Shown piece after piece: positions 1-49,404 of a stretch of DNA of 64,000 bases. Source of the stretch: Stegostoma tigrinum (Eukaryota). The stretch spans positions 49,615,734 through 49,679,733 of the forward strand of contig NC_081368.1 of assembly GCF_030684315.1 (NCBI RefSeq), in the 5' to 3' direction. The position numbers and the translations under genes were made by a program. Each line of letters opens with the position of its first letter. The first letter of the stretch is position 1. A model generated the notes under the pieces. That model made no database searches. It was given only the letters and a program-made list of their open reading frames with translations, and was not told the origin of the DNA.

Positions 1-268
1 CACCAATCTTCGTGTCATCTGCAAACTTGCTAATCAGTCCACGTATACCTTCCTCCAAATTATTTATGTATATCACTAACAGTGGTCCCAGCACAGATCC
101 CTGTGGAACACCACTGGTCACAGATCTCCAATTCGAGAAACCCCCTTCCACTACTACCTTCTGTCTCCTGTTGCCCAGCCAGTTTTTTTTTATCCATCTA
201 GCTAGCACACCGTGGACCCCATGCGACTTCACTTTCTCCATCAGCCTGCCATGGGGAACCTTATCAAA
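1..268 (-). mobile_element. CR1-type LINE reverse-transcriptase fragment
   Basis: Minus-strand translation gives FDKVPHGRL...[12 protein letters not shown]...FADDTKIG, typical CR1 RT motifs. ORF 12..305 is its antisense shadow. Confidence 0.85.
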
Positions 269-1019
269 TAGTGGTAATGCATTACCAGAACTGAATTTTA
301 GTTAACATAGTAAAGAGAGTTGGAACTAATGGATCATTTTCAGGTTGGGAAGACTTAACTATTGGAGTGTCAGAAGGAACAACCCTAGGGACTCAATTAT
401 ATATACATATCCGTATTCATATATTCATATGCTGGTTGGGGGAGAGTGCAATCTATCCACATGTTCTAATGAAACATAAATATGTATATGTAGATATATA
501 TAAATAGACAAAAAGCTTGGCAGATGGAGTTAAATGTAAGAATGAGTGAGGTCCTGCCCATTGGTAGGAAAAGTCAAAAGGCAGTGATGTGGAACAGAGT
601 CTAGGTGTTTTTCCACATGAAGCATGAAATGTGAGCATGCAGGTGCAGCAGGTAGTTAGGAAGGCAAATGGAATTTTGGTCTTTATTGCAACAGTATCGA
701 AGTTTAAAAGAAGGAAAATCTTGTTACAATTGTACAGAGTGCTGGTTCCCATATGTAAGAAAGGATGTATTGGCATTGGAGGCTGTTCAAAGAAGGCTCA
801 CCAGGCTAATTTCTGGGTTGAAGGAGTTGAATTATTGAGAATGGTTAAACATTTTAGGCTTTTATTCATTAGACTTTAGAAGAATGTGGGGTGACATTTT
901 TGAAAACATACAAGATTCTGAGGCAGCTCGTGACAGTAAGTGCTGAGGAAACGTTTCCACTCGTGGGAGAATCACAAACTAGGGAACATAGTCATAGAAG
1001 GAGGAGACACTTATTTAAA

Positions 1020-1891
1020 GGTTTTGGAGTAGATTTGTCACTCGGGTTGTGGGTGTTGAGGTTGGTTGCCTTGCCGAGCTGGTTTGTTGTTCTGTAGACG
1101 TTTCGTTACCGTGCTGGGTAACATCCTCAGTGCAGCCTCTGATGAAGCATCGGTGTGTTTTCCCGCCTGGCTTTTGAACTCTGGGGTCCGTTGAGATGGG
1201 CTGCCTCACTTCCAGGTTTCCTCCATAGTGGAATGTACATGGGGTCGAGTTCAATGTGTTTATTTATAAACTGCTTCATGGAGTGCCATGCTTCCAGAAA
1301 TTCCCGTGCTTGTCTCTGCCTAGCCTGTCCCAGGATCTTGGTGTTGTCCCAGTCGAAGTCATGGTTCTCCTTATCCATGTGGATTGAGATGAGTAAGTAT
1401 TGGACTGCAAACAAAAGTACACCAAAAAGCCACACACAGAGACCAGGTATTGAACTTCAGTAGTAACCATTCCAGCACACACGAACGAAACTGCGTGCGA
1501 ACACTATTTAAAAGGGCAACAAAACACTGCAGCAACATGGAACTATGCCAAGAGGAGGAGGAATACCTCTTCCAGGTGTTCAAGGATAATGGATATTCAA
1601 AGAATTGGGTCAGGAGATGCCTACAGGAACAGCATCAGAAAGATTCTACACACCCAACACACTCATCACACTACCCTACATCAGGAACACATCAGAACTC
1701 ACCACAAGACTTCTACGACCACTGGACATCAGAGTGGCACACAAGCCCACGTCAACCCTACGACAAGTTCTTACCCAAACTAAAGACCCGGTCCCCACCA
1801 TGGACAGGGCCAATGTCATCTACAAGATCCCCTGCAGAGACTTGCGAGAAACAGTGCATCGGACAAACAGGAAGGAAGCCAACCAACCTCA
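1020..1891. mobile_element. Penelope-like element with internal inversion and 13-bp TSD
   Basis: Plus part 1396-1880 encodes ITLPYI..., ANVIYKIPCRD..(frameshift)..KQCIGQTGR (GIY-YIG-like). Minus part 1020-1395 encodes HDFDWDNTKILG...REFLEAWHS plus the terminal repeat. ACACTTATTTAAA occurs at 1007-1019 and 1892-1904. Confidence 0.85.
1097..1130 (-). ncRNA. Minimal hammerhead ribozyme motif in Penelope terminal repeat
   Basis: CTGAGGA-T-GTTACC(cagcac)GGTAAC-GAAAC-GTC: intact core and 6-bp stem II. Flanks ctgca/tacag approximate stem I. Confidence 0.75.
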
Positions 1892-2199
1892 ACACTTATT
1901 TAAAACTGCGGTGTGAATGCATTTCTTCTCCCAGAGGGTAGTGCATATCTGGAATTCTCTACAGCAGAGAGTTGTGGAGGCTAGATCACTGAAAGTATAT
2001 GAAGAGGACCTAGACTACTTTTTTGGAATATTAGGGCATTGATGGCTACGAAGAGCTGACATGAATGAAGAGTTGACACGTGGGTCAGATCAGCCACGAT
2101 CTTGTTGAATGGCATTGCAGGCTTGAGGGGGTCTACTATTTGTATAATAATTAAATATTAATAATTTAACATTAATAATACTATTAAATGCTCTTTAAT

Positions 2200-3600
2200 A
2201 ACATATTCCAGCATTTTCCCAATAATTGATGTTAGGCTCACTGGATGTTCCCATTTTCTAACTGCTATCTTAGTTATATTTGCCAACATCCCATCTCATA
2301 GGAGTGGTCCCAAATCTAAGGAATTTAGGAAAATTATAATACATACATCCATTGTCTCTGTGGCTACATCTTATAACCCTAGGAAGTGAGACATCAGGTC
2401 TCAGGAATGTGTCAGTATTTTTGTCCTTATACTTTTAATACATTTTCAAATATTTCTTCACTGATGATATTAATTTCTTTAAAGTATTAACTCCCTACAT
2501 TAGCATCTATTTCTGGTATAAAACTCATATCCTCTACTGCAAAGACAGACTCAAAATATTTGTTCAAAGCTACTTTCTTCATTCCTCTAATAATTTCTCT
2601 TGATGCTGCTTCCAATGAACTTGAATTGAGCTATTCTGTTCCTTTTTATACATATGTCAAATCTCTTTCTATCTGTTTTCATATTTCTGGCTAGTTTATC
2701 CTCTATTGTATTTTTTCTTTCTCTTCTCGACTTTGGTTACCATTTCCATAACAATCTAAATGCTGACACTTGGTGTTGCATTTTTTCATATTGTAAGCCT
2801 CTTCTTTTAATTTAATACTATGCTTAACTTTCTAAATGTATATCTAGTGGATCTTGTTGAGTTTTTGCACTTCAATGAAATGTACTCATGTTTTGACCAA
2901 TTTGAATTGTTTATTTAAATGTTTTTTATTATCCATTTGCAGCCATACTTTTCTTGTTGCCAACCTACCCAATTAACCTTAGCCAGTTGTCCACTCAAAA
3001 CCTTAAATTTGCCTTTGTTAATTTGGCTTTGTTTAAGATTTTTGTTTGTGATGGGATATGTTGCATTGAAATCGATCACTAAATCCAACAGTTTTATGAT
3101 CAGTATTTCCCAGGGGAACATATCCTGTGACATTAATCCTCATTACTCATTCATTACTCAAATCTTGATCTAAGATAGCTATATCCCTGGCTGGTTCCAC
3201 AATACAGTGCTCCAAGAAACAAGAACATTCTAACCACCTCCTCTTCTAGACCACTCTTACCAATCTTATAATTACAGTTTATATGAAGATTAAAGTCCTC
3301 CACTCTTGCTATTCCCAATTTCCTCACATGATTATTCTACGTCAGGAACACCTAAAGGCAGCTCTTTTCTCACTAACATCCTTATGTGATCCTTTACTAT
3401 CAGGGTTATCCCGTCATCTATTTTTCTGAAATACTGTGCACTCCGGAATATTTACTTTGCTAAATTATCACCTTGTAACTATGTTTCTGTAATGGCAATT
3501 TAATCAAAGCATTTAGCTCAATTTGTACCACTAGTACACTTACTGCACATTTAGATGAATAACCTTTAATCTTATTTTTAAATCCTTATTCCTTGATTTG
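2200..3600 (-). mobile_element. Old, highly decayed CR1 ORF2 remnant
   Basis: Minus strand near 2200-2245 reads PVSLTSIIGKMLE (CR1 YRPVSLTS motif). Other fragments resemble the CR1 at 22083-24885. Confidence 0.55.
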
Positions 3601-5334
3601 GTGATGTTGTTTTTGTTAAATTTCTCTATCCTTTCCTGTCTCATTCTGATCAGTCCTTTGTGATCCTTTAAATTGTACAGGGGCCACCTAGGAACGCATT
3701 TTTGTGTTAAAACTGAGAGTGACTAGTCAATGGACTAGCTAAGCCTTCAGTTTGACTTAGTAAAAGTTGGGACATTCTTATCAAGTGCCATTTTAAACGT
3801 ATGAGTAATTACTTGGTTTTTACAGAACTTAAACAGTGTTTTTAAAAAAGACGTGGAACTCAAGCTTCTTATCTCCTACTCACGGGGACGGAAACACGAG
3901 AAATATATCAAATGCATATGATCCAGATCAAGAAATTTGGGTGCACTTCCCATCATTTCATGTCTTCACCCACTGGCGCTGCTGAATCTCCCTCCTTTTT
4001 AAAAACTCTATTTAAAATCTAAATACCAGCAAATTCAATTCCAAAATAAATCTGTCTGCGATGCAAGAATTTTTCATTTCCACTACCAGTAAACCTTTGA
4101 GTTTAATGATCTTTCACTGATATAAATCAATTCAAAGCCATCCATCTGCATTCAGAACAGCGCTTGTCTCCCACTCATTTCCGATCGGCTCTGACAGTAC
4201 AATAAAGGTTTCTGAGATGATTTCGTAAAGCTATTGAGGTGTAAATCAATACACGTCAACGTACGGCAGCAGGGCAGGAAATTACACGCCTCGACTAGAA
4301 GCCTGTAAACAACTAAACACCAGCTGCTGTGGCTGAGTCTACATATTATATAACTTGCTTAATTTGATTCATTTTAAGGATGCAATATCCTGTTTCAGTA
4401 GTTCAGCTAAAACTGTCAAAAAGTCAAATTTACGCAATTTATCTACTTTTTTTTCTAAAGCCAATGCTACTATTTGGTAAAATGCAAACGAGAATATTAA
4501 CAAAATTGTAAAACGTTATAAAATATCCTTCGAGCATAATTTCAACCCTTGCAAATAATTTTAGCGCCTTTTTTAAATGGACAGCTAGAGTTTTGATGAC
4601 GAGCGATGACATGGCAGAAAAGTTACAAGGAAAGCTACTTCCAGATCTGGTGTATATTTATATGTCAGTCACAGTGGATTCCAAAGCTCAAAGCATTCTA
4701 CATTTAATGTCATTGATTGGAAATGTGCTGCAAAATCTTTTCTTACTCCTCAGAGTTGCTGCTTCCAAATGAATCCATTAAAATTTTAGGACAAAAGCTT
4801 TACAAAATTCTGCTGTACTTGCCCCCAGATCAGACAGCTGCCTCAGCAAACACATGCTATGCCAAAAATTACTTGAATTAATATAACTGAGGCCAGGCCA
4901 CCATAACAGTGTTGATTCTTTTGGCAGATTAACTTGGCATTCACACTAAAGCAAAGAAATTACTTCAACTGTTCCCAATCTCTTCTATGTATGTGATAAA
5001 TTAAGCTGATATGCTGTGCTACAAAGGAACAGGAAATGACTTTGCATCTATATTTTTTCACATGCAAGTTCTCAGTGTTAGACTAATCATCAGAGCAAGA
5101 GCCCGAGTACTTATTCAAATGGATGAAGGAAAACTGGCAGGTAATGCACTGAGGCTTCCTCGTGTACACTTCTTGTGTGCTCAACAAAAGCATTGTCAGA
5201 GACCAAGCTCTTGGCCAGGAAATATCTTCTTCACCTGTGAGCTACTTTTTCGGGCCAGTGCCCGTGAAAGTCTCTGAGATTTTGTCACAGGTCTGTGAGA
5301 TTGTTTAAAACAAGATATCTAGGAGGAAAACAGG

Positions 5335-5540
5335 GTTTTATAGCGAGTTTTGAGAAGATTTGTAGCTCAGGTTGAGGTTCTGGATGTTAGTTTGCTCGCT
5401 GAGCTGGAAGGTTGGTTTTCAGACGTTTCGTCACCATTCTAGGTAACATCATCAGTGAGCCTCCGACGAAGCGCTGGTGTTATGTCCCACTTTCTATTTA
5501 TCTGGTTAGGTTTCCTTGGGTTGGTGATGTCATTTCCAGT
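5335..5540 (-). mobile_element. Solo Penelope terminal repeat with hammerhead motif at 5422-5455
   Basis: Homologous to 1020-1200. Minus strand reads CTGATGA-T-GTTACC(tagaat)GGTGAC-GAAAC-GTC. Confidence 0.75.
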
Positions 5541-6624
5541 TTCATATTTGAGGTATATCATACCTTATCAGAAAGCTAGGCATCCTTGTATCTATTTTCA
5601 CTCAATAAATTTCTTGATCTTGGTTTAAATTAAGATGCTCTAGACATATCTCCAGCTGGTTTAAAAAAATGGGCCAGACTCTAATACCTGAAAATCATAA
5701 TATTGTATCCCCTTGTTTGCCACGTCAAGATGATACACTGTCCTACACTGTCAACACAGGAGTGAAAGATAGGAAATTAGTGAGATATTTTGACAAATCT
5801 TTTAAACTGCTCCATATCCAATGAAGCAATGAATTACAAATCTGTTCATCATAATGACCCAATATAAATGTTTACATTTTCTACAAGCTGTTTAAATCAT
5901 GATGCAGGTTAGAACCTGGTTTCTTGCTACTATCAGTCCTCCTGAAGAAGGCTTCATTTCCACAATATTTTCTTGGCATTTTTCTTTCATACAAGAGATT
6001 GGAATCTGGAACCAAGGCGTGTTGCCTCAAAAAACATTCTAATCTAAAATGAGCATCTTTCATTTATACAGAGCCTTTTAATGTAATAAAACACACAAAG
6101 ACGCTTCCCATGAACTTTGAATTACAAAATATTAACTGACACTTTGCCTTTCTAAATCTGCAGTGTAACTATCACAGATGGTTACAATGCAAATACCAGT
6201 GCCCATTAGAAAAAGCCCTCATGAAGTGAAATGAGATGCTTAATCCTTCCCATCCCCATCTTTGCCACCATCAAAATTGCAGCAATTTAGCTTGCAACTC
6301 CTATTGGTTAGAGAGCTTCGAGTGGGATCAGTGGAAGAGCTAGCTGTAATATTCCAATCTTCCCTAGATACTGAGGAGATAATAGAAGATTTAAGAGAGG
6401 TCTGATAACTGCAGGCTTGTCAGATTAACATCAGTATGGGTTTGCTTTTAAAAACACAAATCAGGGAATAATCGCCAATTCTTGAGGAGCTTGAGTTTAT
6501 TCTGGAGAACCAGCATGGATTTGGAAAAGATAGATAGATTGTGTTTGACTATGAGGAAGCAATAGAAGTTTTGTGAGGAGAATGTTGTCTCTGGATTCTA
6601 GGACAGCCTAGAATACACGATATT

Positions 6625-6750
6625 ACTTAAAATGGAGGTACATGGAATAGTGTAGGTTAGATGGGCTTGAGATCGGTATGACAGGTCGGCACAACATCGA
6701 GGGCCGAAGGGCCTGTACTGTGCTGTAATGTTCTATGTTCTATGTTCTAT
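6625..6750 (+). mobile_element. 5'-truncated CR1 3' end with (TTCTATG)n tail
   Basis: gggccgaagggcctgtactgtgctgtaatgttctatgttctatgttcta: CR1 3' stem-loop plus terminal microsatellite. Confidence 0.75.
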
Positions 6751-8025
6751 TACGCTGAACCACATAGGAAGATAATAGGTATCAGATGAACGAAAGCTTA
6801 GTTGAAGAAGCAAGATTTAAAGAGGGTCTTAAAGGAAAAGGGGGTAGGCAACTGAAGGCTCAGCCACCGATGATGATATATTCATATCAGGGATGCTCAA
6901 GAGGCCAGAATTAGAGCAGCACACACATCTTGAATAGCTACACTGCTGGAAATTTTGATTAATGAGGGGTAAGGGCTCATGGAAGAATTTGAAAGCAAAG
7001 ATGAATGTTTTAAAATCAAGACATGACTTGAATTGGGATCCAGAAGAGGCCAGTGAGCTATCACAATGGTGATAAGGGAGTGGGATTTGCTACACATCAA
7101 GATGTATACAGAAGAGTCTGGATGTCAATAATGTCAGAATGTTGGACACTAGCTAGCAGTGTATTGGAATTGTCAAACATGACATAACGAAGGTATAGTT
7201 GACGTCTTCAGCATCAGATCAAATGAGACAGGGCGAAGTTTGGTGACATTATGGGAGGAAGTAGGCTTGGTAATGTCATGACCTCGTGGTTGGAAGCTTA
7301 TCTCAGGGTCAAATAGGACACAAGGTAGCAAACACATTTGTTTGATCTCAGACTGTTGTCAGCAAGAAGGTGGAATTTGGAGTGGGAACCAAAAACAGTG
7401 ACCTCTAACAGTTAATCTAATAAAATAATTGTATGTTTGAACAGTAAGAAAGGATGGCCTTGTTGGAGGAGAGGTTCAGAAGGGATTAGTTTGAAGATCC
7501 ATAGAATTTGTGAAAATACCCATCATAAATGGGAAGACAACTAATAAAACATCTGTATAGAATGTGTACTCACTATAACATGTTCTGATAGCACAGCCAT
7601 CATTTGTAGTTCTGCTTTCAACAAAACCCTGCAGATAATTCTTCATGTTGTAATGCATAAATCAGTACAGTGATATGTGCAGCTCCCACAAATATGAAGT
7701 CTGCATTTTAAATAAGGACTAAAGTGCTTAGAAAACCAAAACTTTTTCTATTTTAATGTTACTTGGATAATTTGGAAGAAAATTTTTTTCAGGTCTAATG
7801 AATAAATTCTACAATATTATTTTCATATGTGTTGAAACTCCATTATGTACAAATGTGGGATGACCGGAATCCAGTTTATTGCTTCCCAAATTATTATCCT
7901 AAGGCATAACGCATTCATTCAGAAAGCATTAGCTGCTTTTCCTTTGAATGACTCCAGCTCTAAACACATTGTGCTGACAACTTGGGGGAAGACACAACTG
8001 AAAGGTAGAATCACACAACACTCAC

Positions 8026-8083
8026 CCGACAAGCCCCCTCCAATGATTATCACATCTTGTTTCCCAATGGGCATTTTCGCCAT
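8026..8083 (-). CDS. First coding exon of a monoamine oxidase (MAO)-like flavoprotein; remaining exons not found in the window
   Basis: ctgacATGG Kozak context. Encodes MAKMPIGKQDVIIIGGGLS-G with a phase-1 donor G|gtgagt. Contains the FAD-binding DVxxxGxGxxG motif, and the intron position matches exon 1 of MAOA/MAOB (DVVVIGGGIS-G|) as I recall it. Confidence 0.7.
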
Positions 8084-11000
8084 GTCAGTTTTCACCTGTC
8101 TTTTGTGCAGATGATCCTGGATGTGGCTGTTTGATGATTTCTTTTACCTTTATACAATCTGCTGCTGTTGGATTCTAGGCTGTAACTAAATCAACCAGTG
8201 TCCACTTGTAGAGCCTCAGCTGCACCTTTTCATCTGTTAAACTGCCCAACACAGGCGTACGTCTTTTATCTGTGTGTGTGTGAGTGATGTCTCCAGCATG
8301 CTCAAGAGGAGGGACCATTGACAGGATTGTTATAGGTTCTGTATTTATTATTTCATCTGAGGAATCAAAGATGAGAATCAAATGTGTACGGTTATGAGCA
8401 TTAATTGTAAAAATAAAGGCTAAAATGATACTAAAAACATGAAACTACCTTGCTCATCACTGTTAATTAAAATCCTTGAGGATTCATTGTTGTGTAAATT
8501 AATGTATGCATTAAATTGCTCTATATGGAAATATAGACCTAGCAGATTTACATAAGCAAATATATCAAAAGTTATATTGTTGAAAGCTAATAATAGCTGT
8601 ATGCTGGCAACACTGTTTCTACCATGTACAATAACAGTGCCATTTTAATGTGCCAGGATGATTATATTTCGTTGAGTACAAGAATTAGTTATTATAAAAC
8701 ATTTCATTCTTTTGGCCAGAGGAAATTATTTGCATACCTTACAATGATGAGGTGCCATGGTAACCGTTACCAAATCTTATTGTGATTTAAGACAGGTGAT
8801 AATATGTAATAAGCAGAATGCAAAAGATGAGCGAAATTTAGATTAAAAACTATGTTGTAATGAAAAGCATTCATGGGCACCGAAATCTTAAAAATTAATA
8901 CCTTGCATTTTTTATTGTTGCATTCAACTGGTAATCAAAAATATTCTAAAGATATTTTATCTTTCTTTATGAGAGCGAAGAAAGTTATGAATGAATTTGC
9001 AGGAAGGATTTTATGGCCTATCATCCCACAGTACTTTAAAGGCAACTGATAAAGTTAGACTATAGGAAAACATGGCAGGAAATTTGTACATAGCAAGGTC
9101 TGACTAAGCTCAGATGAAGGAACTCAGTGAAATGACAATTTGGGTCTAATCTTGACTCTGTTTTTGTGAATGGTTGTTGATGATTTAGGATATTTCAGTA
9201 ACAAATGAGCTTGAATTTTGCAGTCAACAGTGAAGCAAAGAAGAAGAATCACTGAATCCAAAATAATAATTCTGCTTTCAATCCACAGGTGCTGCCAGAT
9301 CTGCCGAGTGTTTCCAGCAATTTGTTTTTGTTTTTGAGTTAGAGCATCCACAGTTCTTTGGCTTTTTTTGTTATGCAGCAATGGTTTCTGACACTGAAAA
9401 AAATTGCCCTGAAAAATCCAGAAATTTACATGGCACAGACTTTTCTTGCCCAAGGTTAGCTTGAATTTTGCATCATATCAAGGGAATCTCCAAGCATCAC
9501 ACAACAGCAATGTCAGAAACTAAGATAAATAGCTAAGTATACCTGCAATCTGCAAGCCTGTAAATTAATAATAACTAAACGTCTACTTTTAATTTTTACA
9601 GACATTAAAATAAAAACAAATGATGGATTAGATATAGAGATGGGATTAAAGTAAATTCAAAAATAAACCTTTAAAAAACATTTAAAAGATATAATTTTTT
9701 ACTAAAATTGGGACATTCAGGAGTCTAAGCAATTGAAGAGTAGATTTTCAAGACAGTCCACTGGTACCTAATTGCTTCCAGTGGCCCACTCTCAGGATTA
9801 GCGTAGAACCATTCACAATGAATTGAATCTCTAGACTTACAGGTTTAGCAATGCATCTGCAATCTTGAAAGGTTGCTGTCAGTTTCAGAGGAGTAATGAT
9901 GGCAAATACTGACAGTTGCTCAGCCATTATTGTTGAAAAGCACGGCTGAAATCCAGCCCTATTCAGTGAAACTACAAGGTTGCTGTCTTTTAGAGCCAGT
10001 CTCCCTCTCACCTTAACATTGGAGACCTCGTGGCACTATTTAAAAGAAGATATCAAGGAAGCTCTTCTGGCATCATGCATCATTTATACCTGAATCAACA
10101 TTATTTAGAATAGGTTGCCTGGTTATTTATTTAATTGCTGTTCATGGCATCTTGCCATGGTTAAATTGCTTGTTATGTTTATCTACACCGTACAATAAAC
10201 TGTGACATACCTAGCTTATATTGACAGTAAAACTCTTTGAGATATCCTGAGGTTATGAAATAAAGAATATAAATTATACATGTTTTGAAATTTAGACATC
10301 TGCCTGTTCCTCTGCTTGCAGAGAATCGTGAACATAATCCTATCATACTATTCAAAAAATAATTGTTATGCACTCTGATATACAATTCCTCCCCAATACA
10401 TTCCAAAGTATCTTTCTGATCATAAAAGTGATTACACTTCAAAAGTAATTGGCTGGTGGTGAAAACCTTTGGGATTTGATAATTTACTTAGGTACATTTG
10501 CTCTTGCTTTTTCTTGTATATCACAGTTGAAACAACAGTGTACACATGTAAGGTGGTGTATACTTCTTATACATAGTTCATGGTTTTTCTAATGAATTAC
10601 TTTGGTAAAATATAGAAGATTCACATGTTGCTTTGTTTTGATAGTTTCATGTTTAAAAATGTCAGTTAGCCTCACCTTGATGATGGATTACTTTTCTTGA
10701 ACCTCTTTCTCTTGCAACACTTGGTACATGACAGGGATAAAACGAGAACAGATGGGGATTATAACAGTTAATAGCACATCCTGCAAATATAACAAATTTC
10801 TAATTATAACAACAGTGTGACATATATCTGCATTTCAAAATATGATAGTGCTAAGTACATTCAGAGGACAGATAGTTTTAAAATGCATTGAGAGAGACAA
10901 TTATACAGCAACACAAACATTTTGTGAGTTATTATTCAGAACACTTGCAGAGTAACATTAGTATGACTGCTGTCTACTAAGAAATTAGAGCTAGTGATGC

Positions 11001-13324: not shown

Positions 13325-13476
13325 TCACTTTAAGGCTGCTAGCTCTTGGAGGAGCTGTTCCTTCTCCCGCTGAAGTTCCAGGATATGCTGTTTATTCTGA
13401 TCAAGGCGGTCCTCCAGCCACTGTAGCAAAGGACCACTAATGGATGACATCTGGCTACACAGATTCTTTGTGAAAA
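13325..13476 (-). CDS. BRCC3: BRCC3 coding exon 8 (terminal coiled coil and stop)
   Basis: ccag|TT TTC ACA AAG... = VFTKNLCSQMSSISGPLLQWLEDRLDQNKQHILELQREKEQLLQELAALK*. Confidence 0.96.
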
Positions 13477-14832
13477 CTGGAGAAATAAAATGAACAGGCA
13501 GATATTGGTCAGTCAAGATATTTTAAATTTTTTAAAACCACATTGGATATATTCTACATAAATGAATATTGTTGCATCCAAAAAATAAACATCGAATCGT
13601 ATGTGACTAATTCAAAGCAAAATGGTAATTTGGAGAAGCCCTAGCTTAGCCTGTCCTTATAAAAACATTCAGAAATTACTCAGTTTGCTTATATCTAGGC
13701 AAATGTTGAGCCAATCAGTTTGTTCACATTTTGTATCATTTATTTTTAATTTGAACAAATAATTGTAAACATTGAATGGGAATATTAGGGTATGATATAA
13801 ATGCTCCATTTTCGGATAAGACACCTCTCCCTTTTCCCATTATTCTCTTTTAATTCACTTATTGCAATTTATTACATAATAGGCATGCAGAAAAAATTGT
13901 TCAAAAGCAGATAGTAGGAAAGTCAGCCAGATTTCAGAATTCCCAAACAGGTTTGTCAACCCTTCTTTCTGTTTGAAACTAACAGAAAGCTAACTTCGGT
14001 AATGCTGCCCTTTAAAATCAAATAAATTTACTGAATCAATTTGTTTGTGACGGGGGAATAAGATCATACATTTCACAATACACAGAGTTTGCACCTTATG
14101 GTACACAATTTCAGAACCTTATCACATTCCACATTCCCCATCAATCACAAAAAGCACCCATTTCATTCCAGGTAATATTTCCTCCTCTGTCATCTCTCTG
14201 GTCAAACTGCCATTGAAACCCCTAACCATGTGCTTGTTACTTCTAGGCGTACCTTTTCCAATGCTGTACAAAATTCACAAAATAGAATTTAACAAGGTGG
14301 TATACAAAAAATTTAAAATTTATTTTCCTATGCCAACCTCATTATTGGCATGTGCATTTCTGGGATGGTGAAGCACTCAACCCGGAAGGACAATATCCTG
14401 GAAAATTTTGAATCTTTGAAATCTCTTTCCCTTTAATTATTTTTCTCTTCCATTGAAAAACTTCATTTCTGTATTCCACACAAAAAGATTTTCCACCTCT
14501 ACCAATACAAAACTCAAAAGGTCACCAATGTTTAAGTGTTAAATGTCAACTTTGTGCTGTTGTCTGTAATTCTATGTCTTTTACACGGGTGAAACACATA
14601 GTTAATATTTCTTGCAAAAACCTTTTATAAAGAGTGGGAAAAGGAGTTCACTCATGAAACAGGTATCTTTGTCTTGCACAGAATTCTCTATATCTTGTTC
14701 TTTAACTCTGTTTCACCAGCACTCATCAGGATCATAAATGTAACCATTCAACTCTACTCTTCTGGTATGTCACTTAGCGTACATACTATTTTCTTACAAA
14801 TAGGGCTTTTAAAACATTGAGGCATCATCTAC

Positions 14833-14876
14833 CTGATCCATTGTGAATCTTAGTTATAGGATCCAGATGTGTAAGG
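14833..14876 (-). CDS. BRCC3: BRCC3 coding exon 7 (44 nt)
   Basis: tcag|...(S)LTHLDPITKIHNGS|gtagat. Phases fit the neighbouring exons. Confidence 0.95.
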
Positions 14877-17800
14877 CTGAAACAAAGATAAAATGTCACA
14901 GATTATGTTTATTTCAACCTTCTGTTGAATACAAACATTCATTGTTAACAAGATGTGAACTAGATTAACAAATCTTATCCTCGCAAAGAATAGAGAAGAG
15001 TACAGATGAATCTACTTAAGCACTAGACAATGGTTATTCTCCTTCCAAAACAGGTAATTCTCTTTTAACATGATAGTTGTATTCTGGTGCAACATCATGC
15101 TATAGAAAATCGCTATACTGTACAGCCGAAAGTTTGCATTACCCAAACAGCATCCATGATTCATCAATCACATTATAGCCAACTCACATCGATGAAACAC
15201 AGACTATAGCAGAAATACCTGTCATTCAAATTTGGGTCAAAATCCTGGAACTCCCTCCCTACAGCTTTGTGTTGGTACCTACACCAAATAGACTGCAGAG
15301 GGTTCAATAAAGTACCTAACCAAGGAGCAACTAATATCATTTTTTGAAATGTGTTCGTGGGATGCAGGTATTGCTAGATAAGGTAGTAGTTATAGGCCAT
15401 CCCTAACAGTTCAAAAGGCAGGTAAGAACTGTTGCTTTGGGTCTGGAGTCACATGTAGGCCAGATGAGGTACCAATGGCAGATTTCATTCCATGAAGGAC
15501 ATTAATGAAACCAACGTGTTTTAAGGCGATCAACAGTAGTTACATGGTCACCATTAAACAGCTCTATTATCCCAAATATTTATTGAATTCAAATTTCAAC
15601 ATCTGCCGTCGAACAAATGTCCCCTGGAAGTTCGTCTTGGAATTCTCGGTTAGCCCAGTGACATTGTCATGTCACTGCCTCCCACAAAGGGCTAAGCAAT
15701 AAATGCTGGCCAGCCAGTGAGACCCACATCCCATTAATGAATAAAAACGATGCCAATGAACAAAAAGTAAACTTAAGTTGAGAATTTAAATAAGTATCAG
15801 TAAATTAACTGAATTTTCAGCCTCTGGGGTGGAGGAATGCTAAAAATTGTATATATCAAGACGATAAACAAAGCTGGTGCTCGTGTCCATTACAGCATTA
15901 TTACTGTATTCAAGTCAGAGATAAATAGGTTCTTGATTAGTAAGGGGATCAAAGGTTACAAGAATAAGACAGGACAATGACAGTGAGAAACATATCAGGC
16001 ATTATCAAATGGCAAATCAGACTCAAGGGCTGAGTGGCCTAATTTTGTTCCTATATCTTAAGGTCAAATGCCACTGTATGAGAACAAGAACTGTGTCTAA
16101 ATAATGGCTTCAATAAAAGTATTCTGAGAAAAGCATAGGAATTTCATAATGAAAAATGCTTTGTTAACATGGACAACAATGAGTTAGTTACAGCCATGTA
16201 GTACTTCTTTAAAATATACTGGTTGTGATTATAGGTATAACACAACATATATGCTATAACATGTATTTCATTAACATGAATTAGCTGTAATGTAATTGAT
16301 GAAGAGTGTTTGGATAACATAACCTTTCTGCTGTACAGGTATAGCCATTGTCACAGCAATTTCCCGGAATGTGATTTTCCATTGCGCGAGGTCACACATG
16401 AACGCAACTATAGGAGAACTGCTTGTACATCATTTAAAACAAAAATGCTGCAACATTGATCATCATGAGAAATGCAAAGATTGGATGTAAAACTAGAACT
16501 GCTGGCTGCTCTTTCACCTCTCAGAGGGACTCAAATTTTAATCAGTCTGAGGATCTTCAAAAGTCTTAAATAAATTGGGTTTGGCAATTTCAACTCCATA
16601 TGTGAGCATGAAGCTTGAGAAAAAAAATACTTAGGTTCAGCCAAACAAATGCAAAATCTGACATAGACTTGAATTCAACTCCAGACTAATTTCAGTTTAA
16701 AGTAGCTTATACAAATGAATAGCTTGCAAAAATGTCATAGATCATTCTCTTTAAGTCTTGGTTTGGCACACTTGGGATAAAATAACTGTATCTAACTCAT
16801 ATAGTGCATGGTTTTTAAGTTCTTGATAGTGATGCCAGTGCCAAAGGCAGAAGTATTAATATTCTGGCATTGTGCCACCTGCCTGTCAAGTACAGTACTG
16901 TAAAAAGGAAAGCAAATAATTTTAAATACGAATGTTTAGATTAAAAAAAATCAAATCAGCAGAGCTACTTGACAAACAAAAGCATGATGCAAACCAATTT
17001 TACATGGGGAAGGAATAAATTGATTACCTTCAATTTGCATTGGAATGCAGATTCCTTTACTGCTATGACCTCAGTGTTTTTCATCTACAATGATCACGTG
17101 TTCAAAGGAGAAAATGGTGGCAACAAAATTCCATGACTTCGTTGACAACAGCACACCTTTACATCATATAATGTTTTTGGTTACCAAAAATTGATCAATT
17201 TCAGATTTAAAGTTAATATGGAATTGGCTTGTGAGGATTGGTTGGCATAGTTAGCTAAATACCAATGGTGCAGGTTCATTCCCTTTGAGGGCTGTGGTAA
17301 TTCTTGATGCAGAGTAGTTTCCTTGAGCTATATGATCAATTGTGTCTCTCCAACATAGAGAGATGTCTATGGTCCCCTGTGGGCAATGAAGAATTATCTT
17401 GATTCACTATCAACAGCAGTTGCATAATAGCATTTAGCAAATTTCTATCAACCTTTGCGCAAAGAAATATTTGTTGATTTCATGCCTGAAAAGTTTGGTT
17501 TTAAGATAAATGCCCAGCTCAACATTCTCCAAATAGCAGAACTTGTTACTCTCAACCTACTCTATCTGGTCCTCTTAATATCTTGCAAAGTTCCATCAAA
17601 TCAACATTTAACCTTCTAAATTCTGGAAACACAAACAGTTTGTATAATATCTCCTCATGATTTTTAACTTCTGCAATCCAGATATCATTCTAATAAGTTT
17701 ATGCTGCAGTCCCTCCATGGCCTTTATGTATGGATATTAAAGTTTTATGCCCTGAAACGCTCAGAGTACTCCAAATGTCATCCAACCAGAGTTTCAAAAA

Positions 17801-18014
17801 ATTGAAGCATGATTTTTATCCACTTGTTCCTCTATCCTCTAGGTGTAAAGACCAGCATTTCACTAGCATTTTTGATTAATTTTTGTATTTGTTCATGACT
17901 TTCTGACTTGGGTATAGTTTGAAACCAAAGTCTCATTGGACCTTCACTATTTCAACCAATTCATTATTTAATTAATGCATCAAACACAAAATTACACCTC
18001 ATTTCTTACTTTAC

Positions 18015-18146
18015 CTGTGAATTCTTCTATAGGCATCCTGCTCCTCTTGACAAAGAATTTTTGGAAGTTCCACAGCAGACTCCAGACACACTTTACCAAT
18101 AGTTTCATGAGGCACGACATGGATAGGGATTTCTATTCGTTCATAC
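18015..18146 (-). CDS. BRCC3: BRCC3 coding exon 6 (132 nt)
   Basis: YERIEIPIHVVPHETIGKVCLESAVELPKILCQEEQDAYRRIH, with AG/GT boundaries. Confidence 0.96.
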
Positions 18147-18511
18147 CTGAAACAAAGTTATCAAAATGTTAATGACATTCAGATGACCTCCTAAACGATA
18201 AGCTTAGGCTATGATGTTTTAATAATCCAGATTGAATTAGAGGCCTACCCATTATCTATTAATTTTGAGCACGAGTCTCCACCAACCAATTAACTCATAC
18301 AAAATTCAAACCACGACAGCGAAGGATTGCCGTCAGTTCCCAGACTATGAGAAAAGTACTCAAATATATGCAAGGACATATGCATGGATGGGACAATTTT
18401 GCAAACTTTCCATTTGCCATTTCTGTATAATAGCAAAATTAATCACCTCATATTAAAAAAACTCTTAGTTTATATTGTTTTCACAAGAATAACAGACTGC
18501 ATTATACTTAC

Positions 18512-18567
18512 TCAGAACCTTTCTGTGCCTGAATTGACTGGAAACAGGTATACAGAACTCGGCCAGT
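18512..18567 (-). CDS. BRCC3: BRCC3 coding exon 5 (56 nt)
   Basis: ttcag|TGRVLYTCFQSIQAQKGSE|gtaagt. Confidence 0.96.
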
Positions 18568-19346
18568 CTGAAGAAAAGACGTAAAAAGGCAAAATGTAGT
18601 TGTTTAATGGTGTTTCCCAATTTTCTAATGACCTCTTAATATAACCAGCAAGCCCTTCAAACTGTGCTTTAATGATAGGAACTACTACAAAATCTGGGTG
18701 GAATATAATAATTAACTATTCAAATAAGTATGCTGTTTCTTAAAATTGCAATAACTCTGTCATGAAGCACTGAAACCTGATATTTAAACCTAAACTAGAC
18801 TAAAGGGATAAATGTGACGTTTCCTCCTGACAAGAATAAAATGAGCTCGATGCGGTAGCAACCTATGCATACAGCACAAAACTGCTGATAAGTCACAGCA
18901 AATTGGCAATTACAGTCATCATGGCAAAAAGGCAGCATTGTCTGGAATTGGAAAAATTGCAGCAGATAGTAGTCTTTTTAGTTTGGATTTTTAAAACTTC
19001 ATTCAAAGTACATGGATAACCATGGCAAGGTATGTATTTTCACCATTACTATCTACCTAGACAATATGCTGGCGATTTACCTTCTTAAGCCAACCACAGA
19101 GAGGGCTGTTAGGTTGGTGATTTCAGTGATAGTGAAGGAATGGTAATATACTTCCATTACAGGATATTATTGACAGAGTTATCATTTTGGTCTGTCCCAT
19201 AAAAGTTGCACATAATTGTTAACAACTGCTAAAAGGGGAAAATCACCCTAGAGATTTTTTCTCATCACACCAAGAAGAAGCAGTAAACCACTACTAAATG
19301 CCACCAAAGGAATGAACACACAATACAATAAAGAGATGGTACAGAC

Positions 19347-19435
19347 CTTGGTGTTTTTGTCCTCAATGAAACAGGAGAAGATCAACCCTACAAAGCCTTG
19401 ATCCATCATCTGGTACATTGCCTGTGTACGGACAT
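19347..19435 (-). CDS. BRCC3: BRCC3 coding exon 4 (89 nt)
   Basis: (D)VRTQAMYQMMDQGFVGLIFSCFIEDKNTK. Completes the JAMM Asp codon. Confidence 0.96.
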
Positions 19436-20459
19436 CTGACAGAAATAATGCAGATTTAGAATGGCATTGATCAAGCTTTACTTCTTGAACAAACTACTTC
19501 ATGTTAAATGCACTAGCAAGGAAAGTAAAACAGACTCCAAACTCTTCCAATGGAAAGAGCTTAACATTGATGATCTAAATTGATACTTTTGGACATAATT
19601 CAAATTTTAACAGCAAGGAGCACTCTTATTTTGTCCAAAAACACAAGATCCCATTAGCCAATATAACAGGGAGGTAGGTATACCTCCCATAGAAAATCAC
19701 TGGAAAAGCCTTAAGTAGAAATATCTATTGCACACACAGTGAACAGTAAAAAATCTTTTTTTCTTTTTTAAGCAGATTTAAACAAAACAACAGGAGGTCA
19801 CAGATAGACATATATCATGCAAATACTAGATTACAAAATCTAGACAAATGGAAAACAAAACTCTCTGACAGCTTACGGGGAAGTGCAAATCATCCAAAAT
19901 ATTAAATAGAAATGTGAAAGGCCCATCAATTTGTGGAGCTTATAGCTCCCCTATAACAATACTCAAATATCTCTTTAGTAACTTGACGCCTTTTGACGGC
20001 AATATTCCAGATTCTGTGCTGCTTTTTCCAGTCTAGTAAATAAACAAGAATGCTCCAAATGGAATCTAAAGCACAAAACCAAGGGGGAAGGGGAGAAGTT
20101 AAAAATGCCAGCCAGAGTTCCTACAGAGATCCAAGCTGCTAAGAGCACGGTATCCTGTCACCAAGACAGCCCTTATTTACATATGGCGAGTCCTTGACAT
20201 TGATCCAGCTCCCTCAGAGCCAGGTCTCAGAGTGAAAAGAATACTTGACACTCCTGTTCTTAGCAGTCAGCCAGGGCTTCCTGATTCGTCCAGGTTAACA
20301 GCTCCAGATTCTGTACGGCCCACCTGACTGACCTCGTTACAATCACAACAGTAGCTGCCATAGACAACACGTGAAAATACAACAGAGGTCAGAAATGATG
20401 CCTTTGACAGTCAACTGACCTGAAAACACACTGGAAAGTGTCAAAAGAGATGGCATCTT

Positions 20460-20632
20460 GAACATAGTGTGGAGGTGAATGAACACAGCAGGCCAGGCAG
20501 TATCAGGGAAGTAGGAAAGTTGATGTTTCGGGTCAGAACCCTTCTTCAGAAGTTCTGGCCAGGCCTGCTGTGTTCCTCCAGATCCACACTGTGTTATCTC
20601 TGACTCCAGCATCGGCAGTTCTTACAATCTCT
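20460..20632. repeat. Inverted pair of short Penelope-derived repeats with hammerhead-like motif (20522-20549, minus)
   Basis: gtgtggag..gaacacagcaggcc is followed by its reverse complement ggcctgctgtgttc..ccacac. Minus strand reads CTGAAGAAGGGTTCTGACCCGAAACATC. Confidence 0.7.
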
Positions 20633-20782
20633 TGCATGTTGAAGAAGCCATTCGCTACACATCACTGATCTTTCCTCATGTTTGACTATCAGGGACAAAC
20701 AGGAGAAAAGTCATAACTGCTCACATAAGTCAGGTTAACTTCACTATTACTTGATGCTCACCCAATTCAGTCATGTACTTAC

Positions 20783-20870
20783 CTACATGTGAAGGCCATA
20801 CAGTGATATGAGGGTGAGAATGATACCATCCTACCACTCTCATTGGGCGACCCGTCATTTCAGCTAACCT
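20783..20870 (-). CDS. BRCC3: BRCC3 coding exon 3 (88 nt), JAMM/MPN+ zinc site
   Basis: RLAEMTGRPMRVVGWYHSHPHITVWPSHV (H-S-H-x7-S-x2-D). The acceptor is AC and the donor is gtaagt. Confidence 0.96.
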
Positions 20871-23800
20871 GTACAAGTCGTCAAAGATTGTATGTAATTC
20901 AAATCTCTAGTACATAATCTGCAGGTGATGCATTTTTCCCAGAACACTGCAAACCCACAAAGTCAATAAATTGCAATCCTCACCAGAATTCTCTGATATC
21001 AAACCACCAAAACATTTGAACTCCTCCTAATCTAAATAATACAGAAAAATAATGTTGTGAAAGTATATTATGATTGTTTAAAAAAGCATTTTCCTATTTC
21101 ACCCAAGTACCTTTCAGTTGAATGAACAAAGAAATGTTTAAATCTGCCAGTTTCATTTTTGAGAAAGAAGGAAATTTGCTTTTTGCCTCCTAGCAAATGT
21201 TATTTTGCATCTAACTTAAAAGCTCATGTATAGAGCTAACAATTTAATGTACATATCTAGAACCATGAATTTCGGGTGGCAGAGTGGACAGGGATGAGGT
21301 GGGATATAAATAGAAAATATTCTTATTTGATTTCCTCCTTGTGAAGCAAATTTACTAAAGACAATGTTTTTTTAAAAAAGAAAGTTAGTTCATGGGATGC
21401 GGGCATTATTGGCTGGACCAGCTTTTCTTGTGTGCCCCTAACTGTTCTTGTACCAAGTGGCCAGCTAGGGTCTTCAAGAGGGCAGTTAAGAGCTGAACAC
21501 ATGGCTGAGACACTGGAGTCAGACCAAGTGAACATGGTAGTTGTCCCTCCCTAAAGGGATTAGTAAACTAAATGGGTAGTTATGACACTTATATACTTGC
21601 TAGCTTTTTAATTCCAGATTTGTACTAAATTCAAATCTTACCATTGCTGTAGTAGAATTCGAACCCATGTAACTTTTTTTTATTCAGGCATGAGATGTGG
21701 ACAGCATGTATTGCCCATCCCTAATTGCCCACAGAGCAGTTGAGAACCAACCACATTGCTGTGGATCTGGAGTCACATGTAGGCCAGACGAAGTAAGGAT
21801 GGCAGATTTTTTTCCTTAGACAATGTTAGTGGATCATTTGGTTTTCCCTGACAATTGACAACGGTTTCGTGATCATCATTAGGCTCTTAATTCCAGACTT
21901 TTTTCTTACTGAATTCAAATTCTACCATCTTCTGTGGTGGGGTTTGAACCTGGATCTCTGGATTTACAGTCCAATGATAATACCACAAAGCTGTCACCTC
22001 TCCCTCAATCAGTATGTTAGTCTGGGGCTATGGGTTACTAGCGCAGTGATATTATCTTTATATCACTGTTTGTTTAACAGTTCACGCAGATAGATGTAAA
22101 CAGGTAAGATATCATTGGGATTACGGAGACATGGCTGCAGGGTGATGAGGGATGGGAACTGAATGTCCCAGGGTATTCAGTATTTATGAAGGACAGGCAA
22201 AAAGGAAAAGGTGGCACAGTGGCATGACTGGTTAAAGAGGAAATTAACACAATAGTAAAATAGGAAATTAGCTCTGACAATATGGAGTCTGAATGGGTAG
22301 AGTCGAGAAATACCAAGGGGCAATAAACATTAGTGTGTATCACGAATCGATCCCCAAACTGCAGTGATGTCAAGAATGACATTAAACAGGAAATAAGAGA
22401 TGCATTTGATAAGGGAATATCGGTGATCATGGGTGATTTTAATCTGCACATAGATTGGACAAATCAAATTAGTCACAATGCGACAGAGGAGGAATTCTTG
22501 GAGTGGATACTAGATGGTTTTCTTGACCAATATGTGGAGGAACCAACTAGACAGCAGGCCATCTTAGGCTGGATGCTGTGAAATGAGAAGGGAATCATTG
22601 CCAATCTAGCTCTGTGAGACCCCTTAGGGAACAGCAACCATAACATGTTAGAATTTTTTATCAAGATGCAGAGTGAGGTTGTTGACTCAGAGACTAGGGT
22701 GTTAAACCTTAATATAGGAAACTACGAGAATATGAGGGATGAGTTGGCCTTGATAGATTGGGGAGAGTTACTTAAAAGGGATGACACTGGATAGGCAATG
22801 GCAAACATTCAAGCAACACATAAGGGAACTTCAACAACTTTTTATTCCTGTCTGTCACAAAAGCAAAATGGGTAAGCGGGCCAATCCATGGCTTACAAAG
22901 AAAATTAGAGATAGTATCCAATCCAAGGAAGGAGCATACAGATTAGCTAAGAAAATTAATAAATCTGAGGATTGGGAGCAGTTGAGAAGTCAGCAAAGAA
23001 GGTCCAAGGGATTGATTAAGGAGAAAATACAGTACGAAAGCAAGCTTGCAGGGAACATAACAACTGATGCTAAGAATTTCTATAGGTACGTGAAGTGGAA
23101 GAGATTGGTAAAGACAACTGTAGGTCCCTTATAGACAGAAATGTGGGAATATGTAACAGGGCACAAAGAAATGGCTGAGGAACTCAATACATACTGTGGT
23201 TCTGTCTTCACAAAAGAAGACACAAATCAGATACCACAGAATTGTTGGAGAAGGTAAGATTTACTAAAAGGGGAGAGCTGAGGGAGATCAATATCAGAAG
23301 AGAAATGGTGCTGGGAAAATTGTTGGGATTGAAGGCCAATAAATCCCCAGGGCCTGATAATCTACATCACAGAGGATTTAAGGAAGTAACTCTAGAAATT
23401 GTGGATACATTGGTGGTCATCTTCCAGGATTCGATAGACTCTGGAACAGTCACTGCAGATTGGAGGGTGGCTAATGTCACCCCAATATTCAAAAAGGCAG
23501 GTAGAGAGAAAATAGGGAAATATAAACTGGTGAGCCTAACGTCGGTAGTAGACAAAAATTCTCGAATCTGTTGCCAAGGATTTTATAGTAGAGCGTTTAG
23601 AAAGTAGTGGCAGGATCATACACAGTCAGCATGTAATCATAAAGGGGAAATCGTGGTTGACAAATCTATTGGAATTCTATGAAGGTGTACAGTTGACAAG
23701 GGGGAGCCAGTCGATGTAGTATATTTGGACTTTCAGAAAGCATTTGACAACATCCCACAAAGAAGATTAATGTGCAAGATTAAAGTGCGTGGGATTGGAG

Positions 23801-25725: not shown

Positions 25726-25845
25726 CTCAGCTTCAGTAGATGCTGCAGAAAGTTGCTCTGGAGAAATTTCCACTCGATCTTTGCGCTTATCTGAGCGGCG
25801 GAGAATGATGACAGAATGGATATGAACAATCCTGCTTGTGTCAAC
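25726..25845 (-). CDS. BRCC3: BRCC3 coding exon 2 (120 nt)
   Basis: cttag|VDTSRIVHIHSVIILRRSDKRKDRVEISPEQLSAASTEAE|atatcc. Confidence 0.96.
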
Positions 25846-25949
25846 CTAAGAAAAATATGAGAGGTTAATTGACTTCATTTACTTCCTACCTTGTCAAAAT
25901 AAACTGGTGGCAGACTGGATTCGGGCATTAATTTTTATTTCTGGAACCT

Positions 25950-26215: not shown

Positions 26216-26312
26216 ACGCTCACATCCAACTGGGCAGAACAAATTAATATCTCTTTTTGCTGGCTTTAATGGGCCTTAAAGGTGTGGTTTTCATCAAACT
26301 AAGCATAATTGT

Positions 26313-42410: not shown

Positions 42411-42488
42411 TCATGAAGCAAGTCCAAGTAGGAATCCACCAACAAAACCCCCAGTAAGGACAATGTTCTTCTTCACAAACACAGTCAC
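42411..42488 (-). CDS. FUNDC2: FUNDC2 coding exon 5 with stop
   Basis: cacag|[25 protein letters not shown]. Confidence 0.95.
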
Positions 42489-49402: not shown

Positions 49403-49404
49403 AG

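What the first reader, a model, noticed from the sequence alone, without database searches (positions are those of the whole stretch)
8026..8083. Monoamine-oxidase-like gene beside BRCC3-CMC4-FUNDC2: candidate ohnolog absent from the mammalian locus
Seen: MAKMPIGKQDVIIIGGGLSG with a phase-1 intron in the last Gly. Known: MAOA/MAOB exon 1 ends at this same position, and human MAOA/MAOB lie near FUNDC1 (Xp11), whereas the human FUNDC2-CMC4-BRCC3 block (Xq28) has no MAO. Inference: this is the MAO paralog from the FUNDC2-side duplicated block, retained in sharks. I recall a third MAO lineage being reported in non-tetrapod jawed vertebrates but cannot verify that this is it. Only 19 codons are visible.
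Basis: partly seen in the sequence, partly recalled or inferred. Interest (0 to 1): 0.7.

Follow-up and report, generated by a model that had tools for sequence, protein, structure and literature searches.

The report
Shark monoamine oxidase F, first exon
This short exon matches letter for letter the start of zebra shark monoamine oxidase F, an already published third amine-degrading enzyme kept by many fishes and lost in land vertebrates, so it is an ordinary known gene, and only its likely origin in an ancient whole-genome duplication adds a small footnote.

Summary
Observation confirmed: window 8026-8083 (-) is a 58-nt ATG-initiated exon with a phase-1 GTGAGT donor, 5.2 kb downstream of the BRCC3 stop, beside CMC4 and an intact FUNDC2. 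Its 20 residues are identical to the N-terminus of zebra shark XP_048400495.2, a 522-aa monoamine oxidase. Merello Oyarzun et al. 2025 (PMC11833248) list this accession as MAO C/F and already place MAO F next to CMC4 and BRCC3. My tree puts it in the MAO F clade (99/97) and rejects grouping with chondrichthyan MAO A/B (p-AU 0.0006). The catalytic residues are intact in the database protein. Exon 2 is not in the window, so the link to the rest of the gene is inferred. The ohnolog reading is not in the MAO F paper but is likely: MAO F shares a contig with FUNDC2 in 18 of 18 non-teleost rows (0 of 7 teleost rows), and FUNDC1/FUNDC2 are published strict ohnologs. Shark FUNDC1 linkage to MAO A/B was not tested. 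Verdict: already known, low interest.

The parts
8026..8083 (-). Coding exon 1 of MAO F: ATG plus 19 codons and the first base of Gly20; encodes the first beta-strand and GxGxxG loop of the FAD-binding Rossmann fold
   Evidence: 20/20 identity to P0002 = XP_048400495.2
8020..8025 (-). Phase-1 splice donor GTGAGT
   Evidence: sequence
8149..8154 (-). TATA-like box 71 nt upstream of the ATG; promoter role inferred only
1..8025 (-). Intron 1 (runs off the window, over 8 kb); holds retroelement-like remnants, no MAO exon 2
13325..29342 (-). BRCC3, start codon to stop codon, same strand and directly upstream of MAO F (5.2 kb from stop to the MAO ATG)
   Evidence: Pfam JAB and BRCC36_C on exons; tblastn with bichir BRCC3 P0234
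30487..31634 (+). CMC4, two coding exons, head-to-head with BRCC3
   Evidence: Pfam CMC4
42411..52344 (-). FUNDC2, five coding exons, open 151-aa frame
   Evidence: Pfam FUN14; 150/151 to whale shark FUNDC2 P0247, 104/143 to a teleost FUNDC1 P0216

Best explanation
The stretch is a 58-nt exon identical in its 20 residues to the start of zebra shark monoamine oxidase F, and it is most likely exon 1 of the MAO F gene, predicted to make a mitochondrial outer-membrane flavoenzyme that oxidises amines such as serotonin, dopamine and tyramine. Shown: exon, donor, neighbours, identity to XP_048400495.2, placement of that protein in the MAO F clade, and its intact catalytic residues. Inferred: splicing to exon 2 beyond the left edge of the window; that the window is zebra shark or a close carpet-shark relative. 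Mechanism, inferred from human MAO A/B and tarpon MAO F: exon 1 supplies the beta-strand and Gly15-x-Gly17-x-x-Gly20 loop that grips the FAD pyrophosphate; FAD is bound covalently to Cys401; the amine sits between Tyr402 and Tyr439 and is oxidised to an imine, which hydrolyses to aldehyde plus ammonia; O2 re-oxidises the flavin near Lys300, giving H2O2; a hydrophobic helix at about 495-513 anchors the enzyme. The Phe203/Asn176 cavity predicts MAO A-like behaviour (clorgyline-sensitive, weak on benzylamine). Origin, inferred at about 0.8: MAO F and MAO A/B are a whole-genome-duplication pair, one beside FUNDC2 and one beside FUNDC1.
For: The search with the exon returned 1 protein among 1 candidate: P0002, 100% identity over the 20 coding residues, though E only 0.15. 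P0002 is XP_048400495.2; XP_048400495.1 is in the MAO C column of Table S1 of PMC11833248. The paper states that MAO F is flanked 5' by CMC4 and BRCC3, also in cartilaginous fish. Over the last 17 residues the exon matches 15 chondrichthyan F proteins at 13-17 and 14 chondrichthyan A/B proteins at 10-12, zebra shark A/B 12. Tree of 33 rows: F clade 99/97, A/A-B/B clade 100/99, forcing P0002 into chondrichthyan A/B rejected at p-AU 0.0006; a 51-row quick tree agrees. Gly15/17/20, Lys300, Cys401, Tyr402 and Tyr439 are present; the C-terminal 19-mer has hydropathy 2.2. The best PDB matches are human and rat MAO A and MAO B (E 1e-250 to 1e-244), far above other flavoproteins. Tarpon MAO F was shown to be mitochondrial and active on all six amines tested. 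FUNDC1/2 are strict ohnologs in PMC5526904.
Against: Only 20 of about 522 codons are in the window and no genome is held, so the rest of this copy was not seen; all catalytic-site evidence comes from the database protein. No enzyme data exist for a shark MAO F in what I read. In 0 of 7 teleost rows is MAO F on the contig of the FUN14 hit found. No shark FUNDC1 was retrieved, so the other half of the paralogon rests on one teleost (P0216 and P0075 share a contig length) and on human deletion data. The two outgroup rows in the tree are unnamed and long-branched, and no lamprey MAO was retrieved, so the timing of the duplication comes from the paper, not from my tree.
Confidence: 0.95

Rival explanations
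1. The exon is an orphan or belongs to a decayed MAO F copy in this genome: exon 1 looks intact, but the downstream exons are missing or broken.
For: No exon 2 within the 8 kb visible; the rest of the locus could not be read.
Against: ATG context, frame and donor are intact. The peptide is identical to a full-length annotated 522-aa protein. All 15 chondrichthyan F proteins compared keep this N-terminus. A first intron over 8 kb is ordinary here: FUNDC2 spans 10 kb and BRCC3 16 kb.
Confidence: 0.03
2. It is the FUNDC1-side MAO A/B orthologue moved next to BRCC3.
For: MAO A/B starts with a similar peptide (10-12 of 17 identical) and appears to share the intron position.
Against: Zebra shark MAO A/B is a different protein (P0142 = XP_048396801.1, 69% identical to P0002) on a contig of different length (82.1 vs 74.9 Mb). 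MAO A/B is on the FUNDC2 contig in 0 of 14 rows. p-AU 0.0006 against grouping.
Confidence: 0.01
3. It is exon 1 of another FAD-dependent oxidase (IL4I1/LAAO, SMOX, PAOX, LSD1/2) or a chance GxGxxG frame.
For: The 20-mer alone has no significant Pfam or PDB match, and GxGxxG is common to many flavoproteins.
Against: Exact 20/20 match to a protein whose best solved relatives are MAO A/B at E about 1e-250, against about 1e-26 for LAAO-type and 1e-19 to 1e-20 for LSD2 and polyamine oxidase. Pattern seen in 0 of 100 resamplings. The position matches the published MAO F synteny.
Confidence: 0.01
4. On origin only: the gene is MAO F, but it arose by a local or segmental duplication and relocation in the jawed-vertebrate stem, not by whole-genome duplication.
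For: The MAO F paper says only 'a duplication event' and never mentions ohnologs, WGD or FUNDC. It reports no conserved synteny in lungfish and coelacanth. Teleost rows break the FUNDC link. FUNDC1 linkage in sharks is untested.
Against: The two MAO genes sit on different contigs in all 11 species rows where both MAO genes and a same-contig FUNDC2 are on record, and F always goes with FUNDC2. FUNDC1/2 are strict ohnologs. Human FUNDC1 is co-deleted with MAOB, NDP and EFHC2. The timing (after the lamprey split, before sharks and bony fishes split) is that of the jawed-vertebrate tetraploidy (PMC7269912). The paper's Fig. S1 text shows a GPR34 label at both loci.
Confidence: 0.15

Closest known systems
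MAO F (MAO C in the preprint), Merello Oyarzun et al. 2025, PMC11833248; zebra shark XP_048400495
   Same: N-terminal 20 residues identical; same CMC4/BRCC3 neighbourhood; the accession is in the paper's own MAO C list; same clade in my trees.
   Different: Nothing found in the exon. The paper does not mention FUNDC2 or an ohnolog origin, and it assayed tarpon, not shark, enzymes.
Indo-Pacific tarpon MAO F (XP_036404314.1 = P0024), the only assayed member
   Same: Same clade; 70.9% identity to P0002; same Cys/Tyr/Tyr/Lys catalytic set, Phe gate and the Thr-x-Met pair.
   Different: The second gate residue is Leu330 in zebra shark and Met in tarpon (Leu in 13, Met in 11 of 24 F proteins). In this the shark enzyme equals tarpon MAO A/B (Phe/Leu), so its inhibitor profile may differ.
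MAO A/B of cartilaginous fish (zebra shark XP_048396801.1 = P0142)
   Same: Same fold and catalytic residues; 69.2% identity; apparently the same first-intron position.
   Different: Sister clade, different chromosome, published neighbours GPR34-GPR82 and NDP-EFHC2; Ser-x-Ile instead of Thr-x-Met at human A positions 323/325; GGGISG instead of GGGLSG.
[quoted passage not shown]
   Same: 66% identity to human MAO A; Asn181, Phe208, Lys305, Cys406, Tyr407 and Tyr444 equivalents all kept.
   Different: Products of a later tetrapod duplication of MAO A/B; MAO F has no tetrapod orthologue according to the paper; lacks the MAO B-type Ile/Tyr gate.

Membership tests
Vertebrate monoamine oxidases (flavin amine oxidase, PF01593) | N-terminal Rossmann GxGxxG FAD-binding motif | tested here: met
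   In the window exon itself
Vertebrate monoamine oxidases (flavin amine oxidase, PF01593) | Full-length Amino_oxidase domain, closest to MAO A/B among solved structures | tested here: met
   On P0002, not on window DNA: PF01593 E 5e-84; PDB MAO A/B E about 1e-250
Vertebrate monoamine oxidases (flavin amine oxidase, PF01593) | Flavinylated Cys, Tyr-Tyr aromatic cage, O2-site Lys, C-terminal membrane helix | tested here: met
   P0002 Cys401, Tyr402, Tyr439, Lys300; hydrophobic 495-513. Residue roles from PMC11833248; human A numbering recalled and checked by alignment
Vertebrate monoamine oxidases (flavin amine oxidase, PF01593) | Amine oxidase activity and mitochondrial location | not testable with these tools
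   Shown for tarpon MAO F only
MAO F | Groups with the published MAO F clade, sister to A, B and A/B | tested here: met
   P0002: 99/97, SH-aLRT 99; the exon alone scores 15.1 on an F profile and 6.8 on an A/B profile, neither built from P0002
MAO F | CMC4 and BRCC3 on the 5' side | tested here: met
MAO F | GABRA3/GABRB4 on the 3' side (only partly kept in cartilaginous fish) | not testable with these tools
   Lies beyond the left edge; no genome held
MAO F | This copy has all downstream exons and is spliced | not testable with these tools
   Exon 2 is not in the window; no genome held
MAO A/B | Groups with chondrichthyan MAO A/B; lies at the GPR82-NDP locus | tested here: not met
   p-AU 0.0006; neighbours are BRCC3-CMC4-FUNDC2
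Ohnolog pair MAO F / MAO A/B | Duplication dated to the early-vertebrate tetraploidies | tested here: inconclusive
   Both clades hold cartilaginous and bony fishes, so it predates their split; no lamprey row in my tree; the paper places lamprey outside both
Ohnolog pair MAO F / MAO A/B | MAO F linked to FUNDC2 | tested here: met
   Window (34 kb apart); 18 of 18 non-teleost rows, 0 of 7 teleost rows
Ohnolog pair MAO F / MAO A/B | MAO A/B linked to FUNDC1 in the same genomes, with further pairs in register | tested here: inconclusive

The most novel reading that the evidence does not exclude
MAO F and MAO A/B are a true ohnolog pair from the jawed-vertebrate tetraploidy, sitting in the FUNDC2 and FUNDC1 paralogous blocks (human Xq28 and Xp11 equivalents). 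Tetrapods lost the Xq28-side copy and rebuilt a two-enzyme system by tandem duplication of the other. Shark MAO F, with a Phe/Leu gate instead of tarpon's Phe/Met, may also differ in inhibitor profile from the one assayed MAO F. Neither point is in the two versions of the MAO F paper that I searched.
Probability: 0.75. Interest if true: 0.25.

Novelty: already known. Interest (0 to 1): 0.14.

Why it matters
The gene, its name, its neighbours and the enzymology of one orthologue are in print (PMC11833248), and the matching zebra shark protein is in that paper's table, so a specialist would not be surprised. What remains is modest. Tying MAO F to FUNDC2 gives a mechanism (whole-genome duplication) for a split that the paper left as 'a duplication event'. 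The Leu/Met variation at the substrate gate shows that tarpon is not representative of all MAO F, which matters if MAO inhibitors are used to probe monoamine turnover in sharks. It is also a clean check that the first-stage reader recognised a real paralog from 19 codons and synteny.

Tried and rejected
No whole genome is held, so exons left of the window could not be searched. The 20-mer alone against PDB and Pfam gave nothing significant. Sequencing runs: no RNA holder listed. The four runs laid (at most 2 samples, 1 study, contigs) cover 7700-8500 in one piece with no differences or joints; they may be this DNA's source and say nothing on splicing. Single-sequence AlphaFold of P0002 was uninformative (pLDDT 32) and was not used; no fold search was run. 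The first careful tree (51 rows, mixture model) did not finish and returned a quick tree; the second used 33 of those 51 rows, dropping near-duplicates and four of the six unnamed rows. One unnamed 'outgroup' row (P0301) fell inside the MAO A group and was dropped. No lamprey, coelacanth-F or chimaera-F MAO sequence was retrieved. Chromosome positions of gar FUNDC1/2 were sought in the supplements of PMC5526904 and not found (its Supplementary Table 2 was not visible). PMC7269912 has no text hit for gar or chicken chromosome labels. PMC6050045 had no hit for FUNDC1 or MAOB. A search for the human MAO exon-1 boundary gave only listings, none read. PMC10244343 passages add only bilaterian MAO monophyly. 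Earlier scan findings: none. Rows left out of the linkage count: C. plagiosum and one A. ruthenus copy (FUNDC protein shared with another species, so the contig length is not theirs), and species where only one of the two genes was retrieved.

Full report
1. Observation. On the minus strand, 8083..8026 reads as 19 codons plus one base followed by gtgagt. Read through the donor it gives MAKMPIGKQDVIIIGGGLSG. A TATA-like box starts 71 nt upstream. A Rossmann-type pattern occurs once in the six frames of the window and in 0 of 100 dinucleotide-preserving resamplings. The exon alone is too short for Pfam or PDB. No exon 2 lies in positions 1-8025, and no genome is held for this window.

2. Neighbours. 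Exons of BRCC3 (minus, ATG 29342 to stop 13325), CMC4 (plus, 30487-31634) and a FUN14 gene (minus, 52344-42411) were located. Pfam gave JAB, BRCC36_C, CMC4 and FUN14 on 8 of the 10 neighbour exons scanned. The FUN14 gene is an open 151-aa frame, 150/151 identical to whale shark FUNDC2, 137-148/151 to other elasmobranch FUNDC2 and 104/143 to a teleost FUNDC1, so it is FUNDC2. The order FUNDC2-CMC4-BRCC3 with CMC4 and BRCC3 head-to-head fits the human Xq28 block described in PMC7537572 (passages), a text with no mention of MAO.

3. Identity. A search with the exon among longer proteins returned one candidate, P0002, 522 aa, identical over the 20 coding residues (E 0.15 because the match is short). 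P0002 is zebra shark XP_048400495.2. The whale shark orthologue matches 18 of 20 and bamboo sharks 15, so the window is likely zebra shark or a close carpet shark (inference). Merello Oyarzun et al. 2025 (PMC11833248; I read parts 1-4 of 7 of the text and part 1 of 2 of the supplement) describe MAO F in non-tetrapod jawed vertebrates, flanked 5' by CMC4 and BRCC3 in bony and cartilaginous fish and lost in the tetrapod ancestor. Their Table S1 lists XP_048400495.1 under MAO C (the preprint name) and XP_048396801.1 under MAO A/B. The latter is P0142, 69.2% identical to P0002 and on a contig of different length.

4. Phylogeny. A 33-row IQ-TREE analysis gives an F clade of 13 rows (99/97) and an A, B, A/B clade of 18 rows (100/99), each with cartilaginous and bony fishes. 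Holding P0002 with the five chondrichthyan A/B rows costs 258 log-likelihood units (p-AU 0.0006). A 51-row quick tree agrees (F 17 rows, SH-aLRT 99). The outgroups are unnamed, long-branched rows. Two profiles built from published anchors (without P0002) class 25 of 133 proteins as F; by the names none is from a tetrapod or from a teleost outside eels, tarpons and bonytongues. Only the best 120 of 839 hits were listed, so this is not an exhaustive absence test. The exon by itself prefers F: 13-17 of 17 identities to 15 chondrichthyan F proteins against 10-12 to 14 A/B proteins.

5. Intron position. I could not read the human genes. Indirectly, of 19 database proteins lacking the normal N-terminal motif, 14 resume at the LSAAK-type segment after a foreign start (13 with Gly just before it) and 5 start further downstream; the 14 come from both the F and the A/B side. 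That is what mis-predicted first exons give if both paralogs break in this Gly codon.

6. How it works (inferred from P0002 and from the paper). P0002 carries PF01593 over 18-455, and its best solved relatives are human and rat MAO A and MAO B, E 1e-250 to 1e-244, against about 1e-26 for LAAO-type and 1e-19 to 1e-20 for LSD2 and polyamine oxidase. By alignment to human MAO A it keeps Gly15/17/20, Glu38, Arg40, Tyr64, Asn176, Phe203, Gln210, Lys300, Phe347, Cys401, Tyr402 and Tyr439, and has a hydrophobic C-terminal stretch at 495-513. The window's exon supplies the first strand and glycine loop that bind FAD. The expected reaction is FAD-dependent oxidation of an amine C-N bond to an imine, hydrolysis to the aldehyde and re-oxidation by O2 to H2O2 at the mitochondrial outer membrane. 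Tarpon MAO F localises to mitochondria, oxidises kynuramine, tyramine, phenethylamine, serotonin and dopamine, is weak on benzylamine, and is inactivated by clorgyline but not deprenyl. The paper gives tarpon F a Phe/Met gate. In my alignment that position is Leu in 13 and Met in 11 of 24 F proteins, Leu in zebra shark, which is the tarpon A/B state. A Thr-x-Met pair at human A positions 323/325 is present in 24 of 24 F and 0 of 24 other MAO proteins aligned, so it is the better F marker.

7. Origin. The words FUNDC, ohnolog, WGD and paralogon do not occur in the journal version; FUNDC, ohnolog and genome duplication do not occur in the preprint; paper searches listed no other paper on MAO F origin. 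So the ohnolog reading is not in print as far as these searches reach. In its favour: using the contig lengths reported, MAO F and FUNDC2 share a contig in 18 of 25 rows, namely 18 of 18 non-teleost rows (16 species; one is a 177-kb scaffold) and 0 of 7 teleost rows, while MAO A/B is on the FUNDC2 contig in 0 of 14. PMC5526904 (passages and section 12 part 1) reports FUNDC1/FUNDC2 as strict ohnologs with nine paralog pairs in their human neighbourhoods, and puts the zebrafish copies on chromosomes 9 and 21; zebrafish MAO is on chromosome 9 in the MAO F paper's Fig. S1 text. Human FUNDC1 is deleted together with MAOB, NDP and EFHC2 in one patient (PMC9108013, passages). A sea bream FUNDC1 and MAO share a contig length. 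The paper's timing, after the lamprey split and before the shark-bony fish split, matches the jawed-vertebrate allotetraploidy of PMC7269912 (passages). Against or open: no shark FUNDC1 was retrieved, contig length shows chromosome and not adjacency, teleosts break the link (likely reciprocal loss after the teleost duplication; inference), and I had no lamprey sequence. I put the ohnolog origin at about 0.8.

8. Verdict. Novelty: already known. Interest 0.14. The residual additions are the FUNDC2 link, pointing to a whole-genome-duplication origin, and the Leu gate of shark MAO F. Supplements of the bioRxiv version were not read, and figure images were not visible in any paper; Fig. S1 was read as extracted text only.

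Noticed in passing
P0002 residues 318-330 (database protein; gene continues left of the window): The second substrate-gate residue is Leu in 13 and Met in 11 of 24 MAO F proteins (Leu in most sharks and lungfish), so the Phe/Met gate of tarpon is not general; a Thr-x-Met pair at human A positions 323/325 separates 24 of 24 F from 24 other MAO proteins.
   Followed up: partly
alignment column of human MAO A residue 181: PMC11833248 says the residue matching MAO B Cys172 is Gln in tarpon and human MAO A; my alignment shows Asn in human A and in all 24 F proteins including tarpon. Possibly a slip in the paper's text.
   Followed up: no
window 29693-30480: The stretch between the presumed non-coding first exon of CMC4 and its first coding exon is only about 0.8 kb, and 9 of the 13 plus-strand frames scanned gave no TCL1/MTCP1 match; MTCP1, nested here in human, may be absent in this shark.
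   Followed up: partly
teleost rows: In 7 of 7 eel, tarpon, bonefish and bonytongue rows MAO F and the FUN14 gene found lie on contigs of different length, unlike all non-teleost rows; this may be reciprocal loss after the teleost genome duplication.
   Followed up: no
P0020 and P0203 (lungfish): The paper reports no conserved synteny for lungfish MAO F, yet lungfish MAO F and FUNDC2 share the same 863-Mb contig length, so chromosome-level linkage seems kept.
   Followed up: partly
P0008, P0014, P0015 and others: Several shark MAO F models in the databases have foreign N-termini that resume at the exon-2 start, so the short exon 1 behind a long intron is often missed by annotation.
   Followed up: partly
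window 8074-8083: A second in-frame ATG (Met4) matches the start used in bamboo shark and ray MAO F models, so two start sites are possible.
   Followed up: no
window 1-300, 1130-1940, 22000-24900, 56300-59200: Decayed reverse-transcriptase-type retroelement remnants (labels from my own recognition of the frames); ordinary for shark introns.
   Followed up: no
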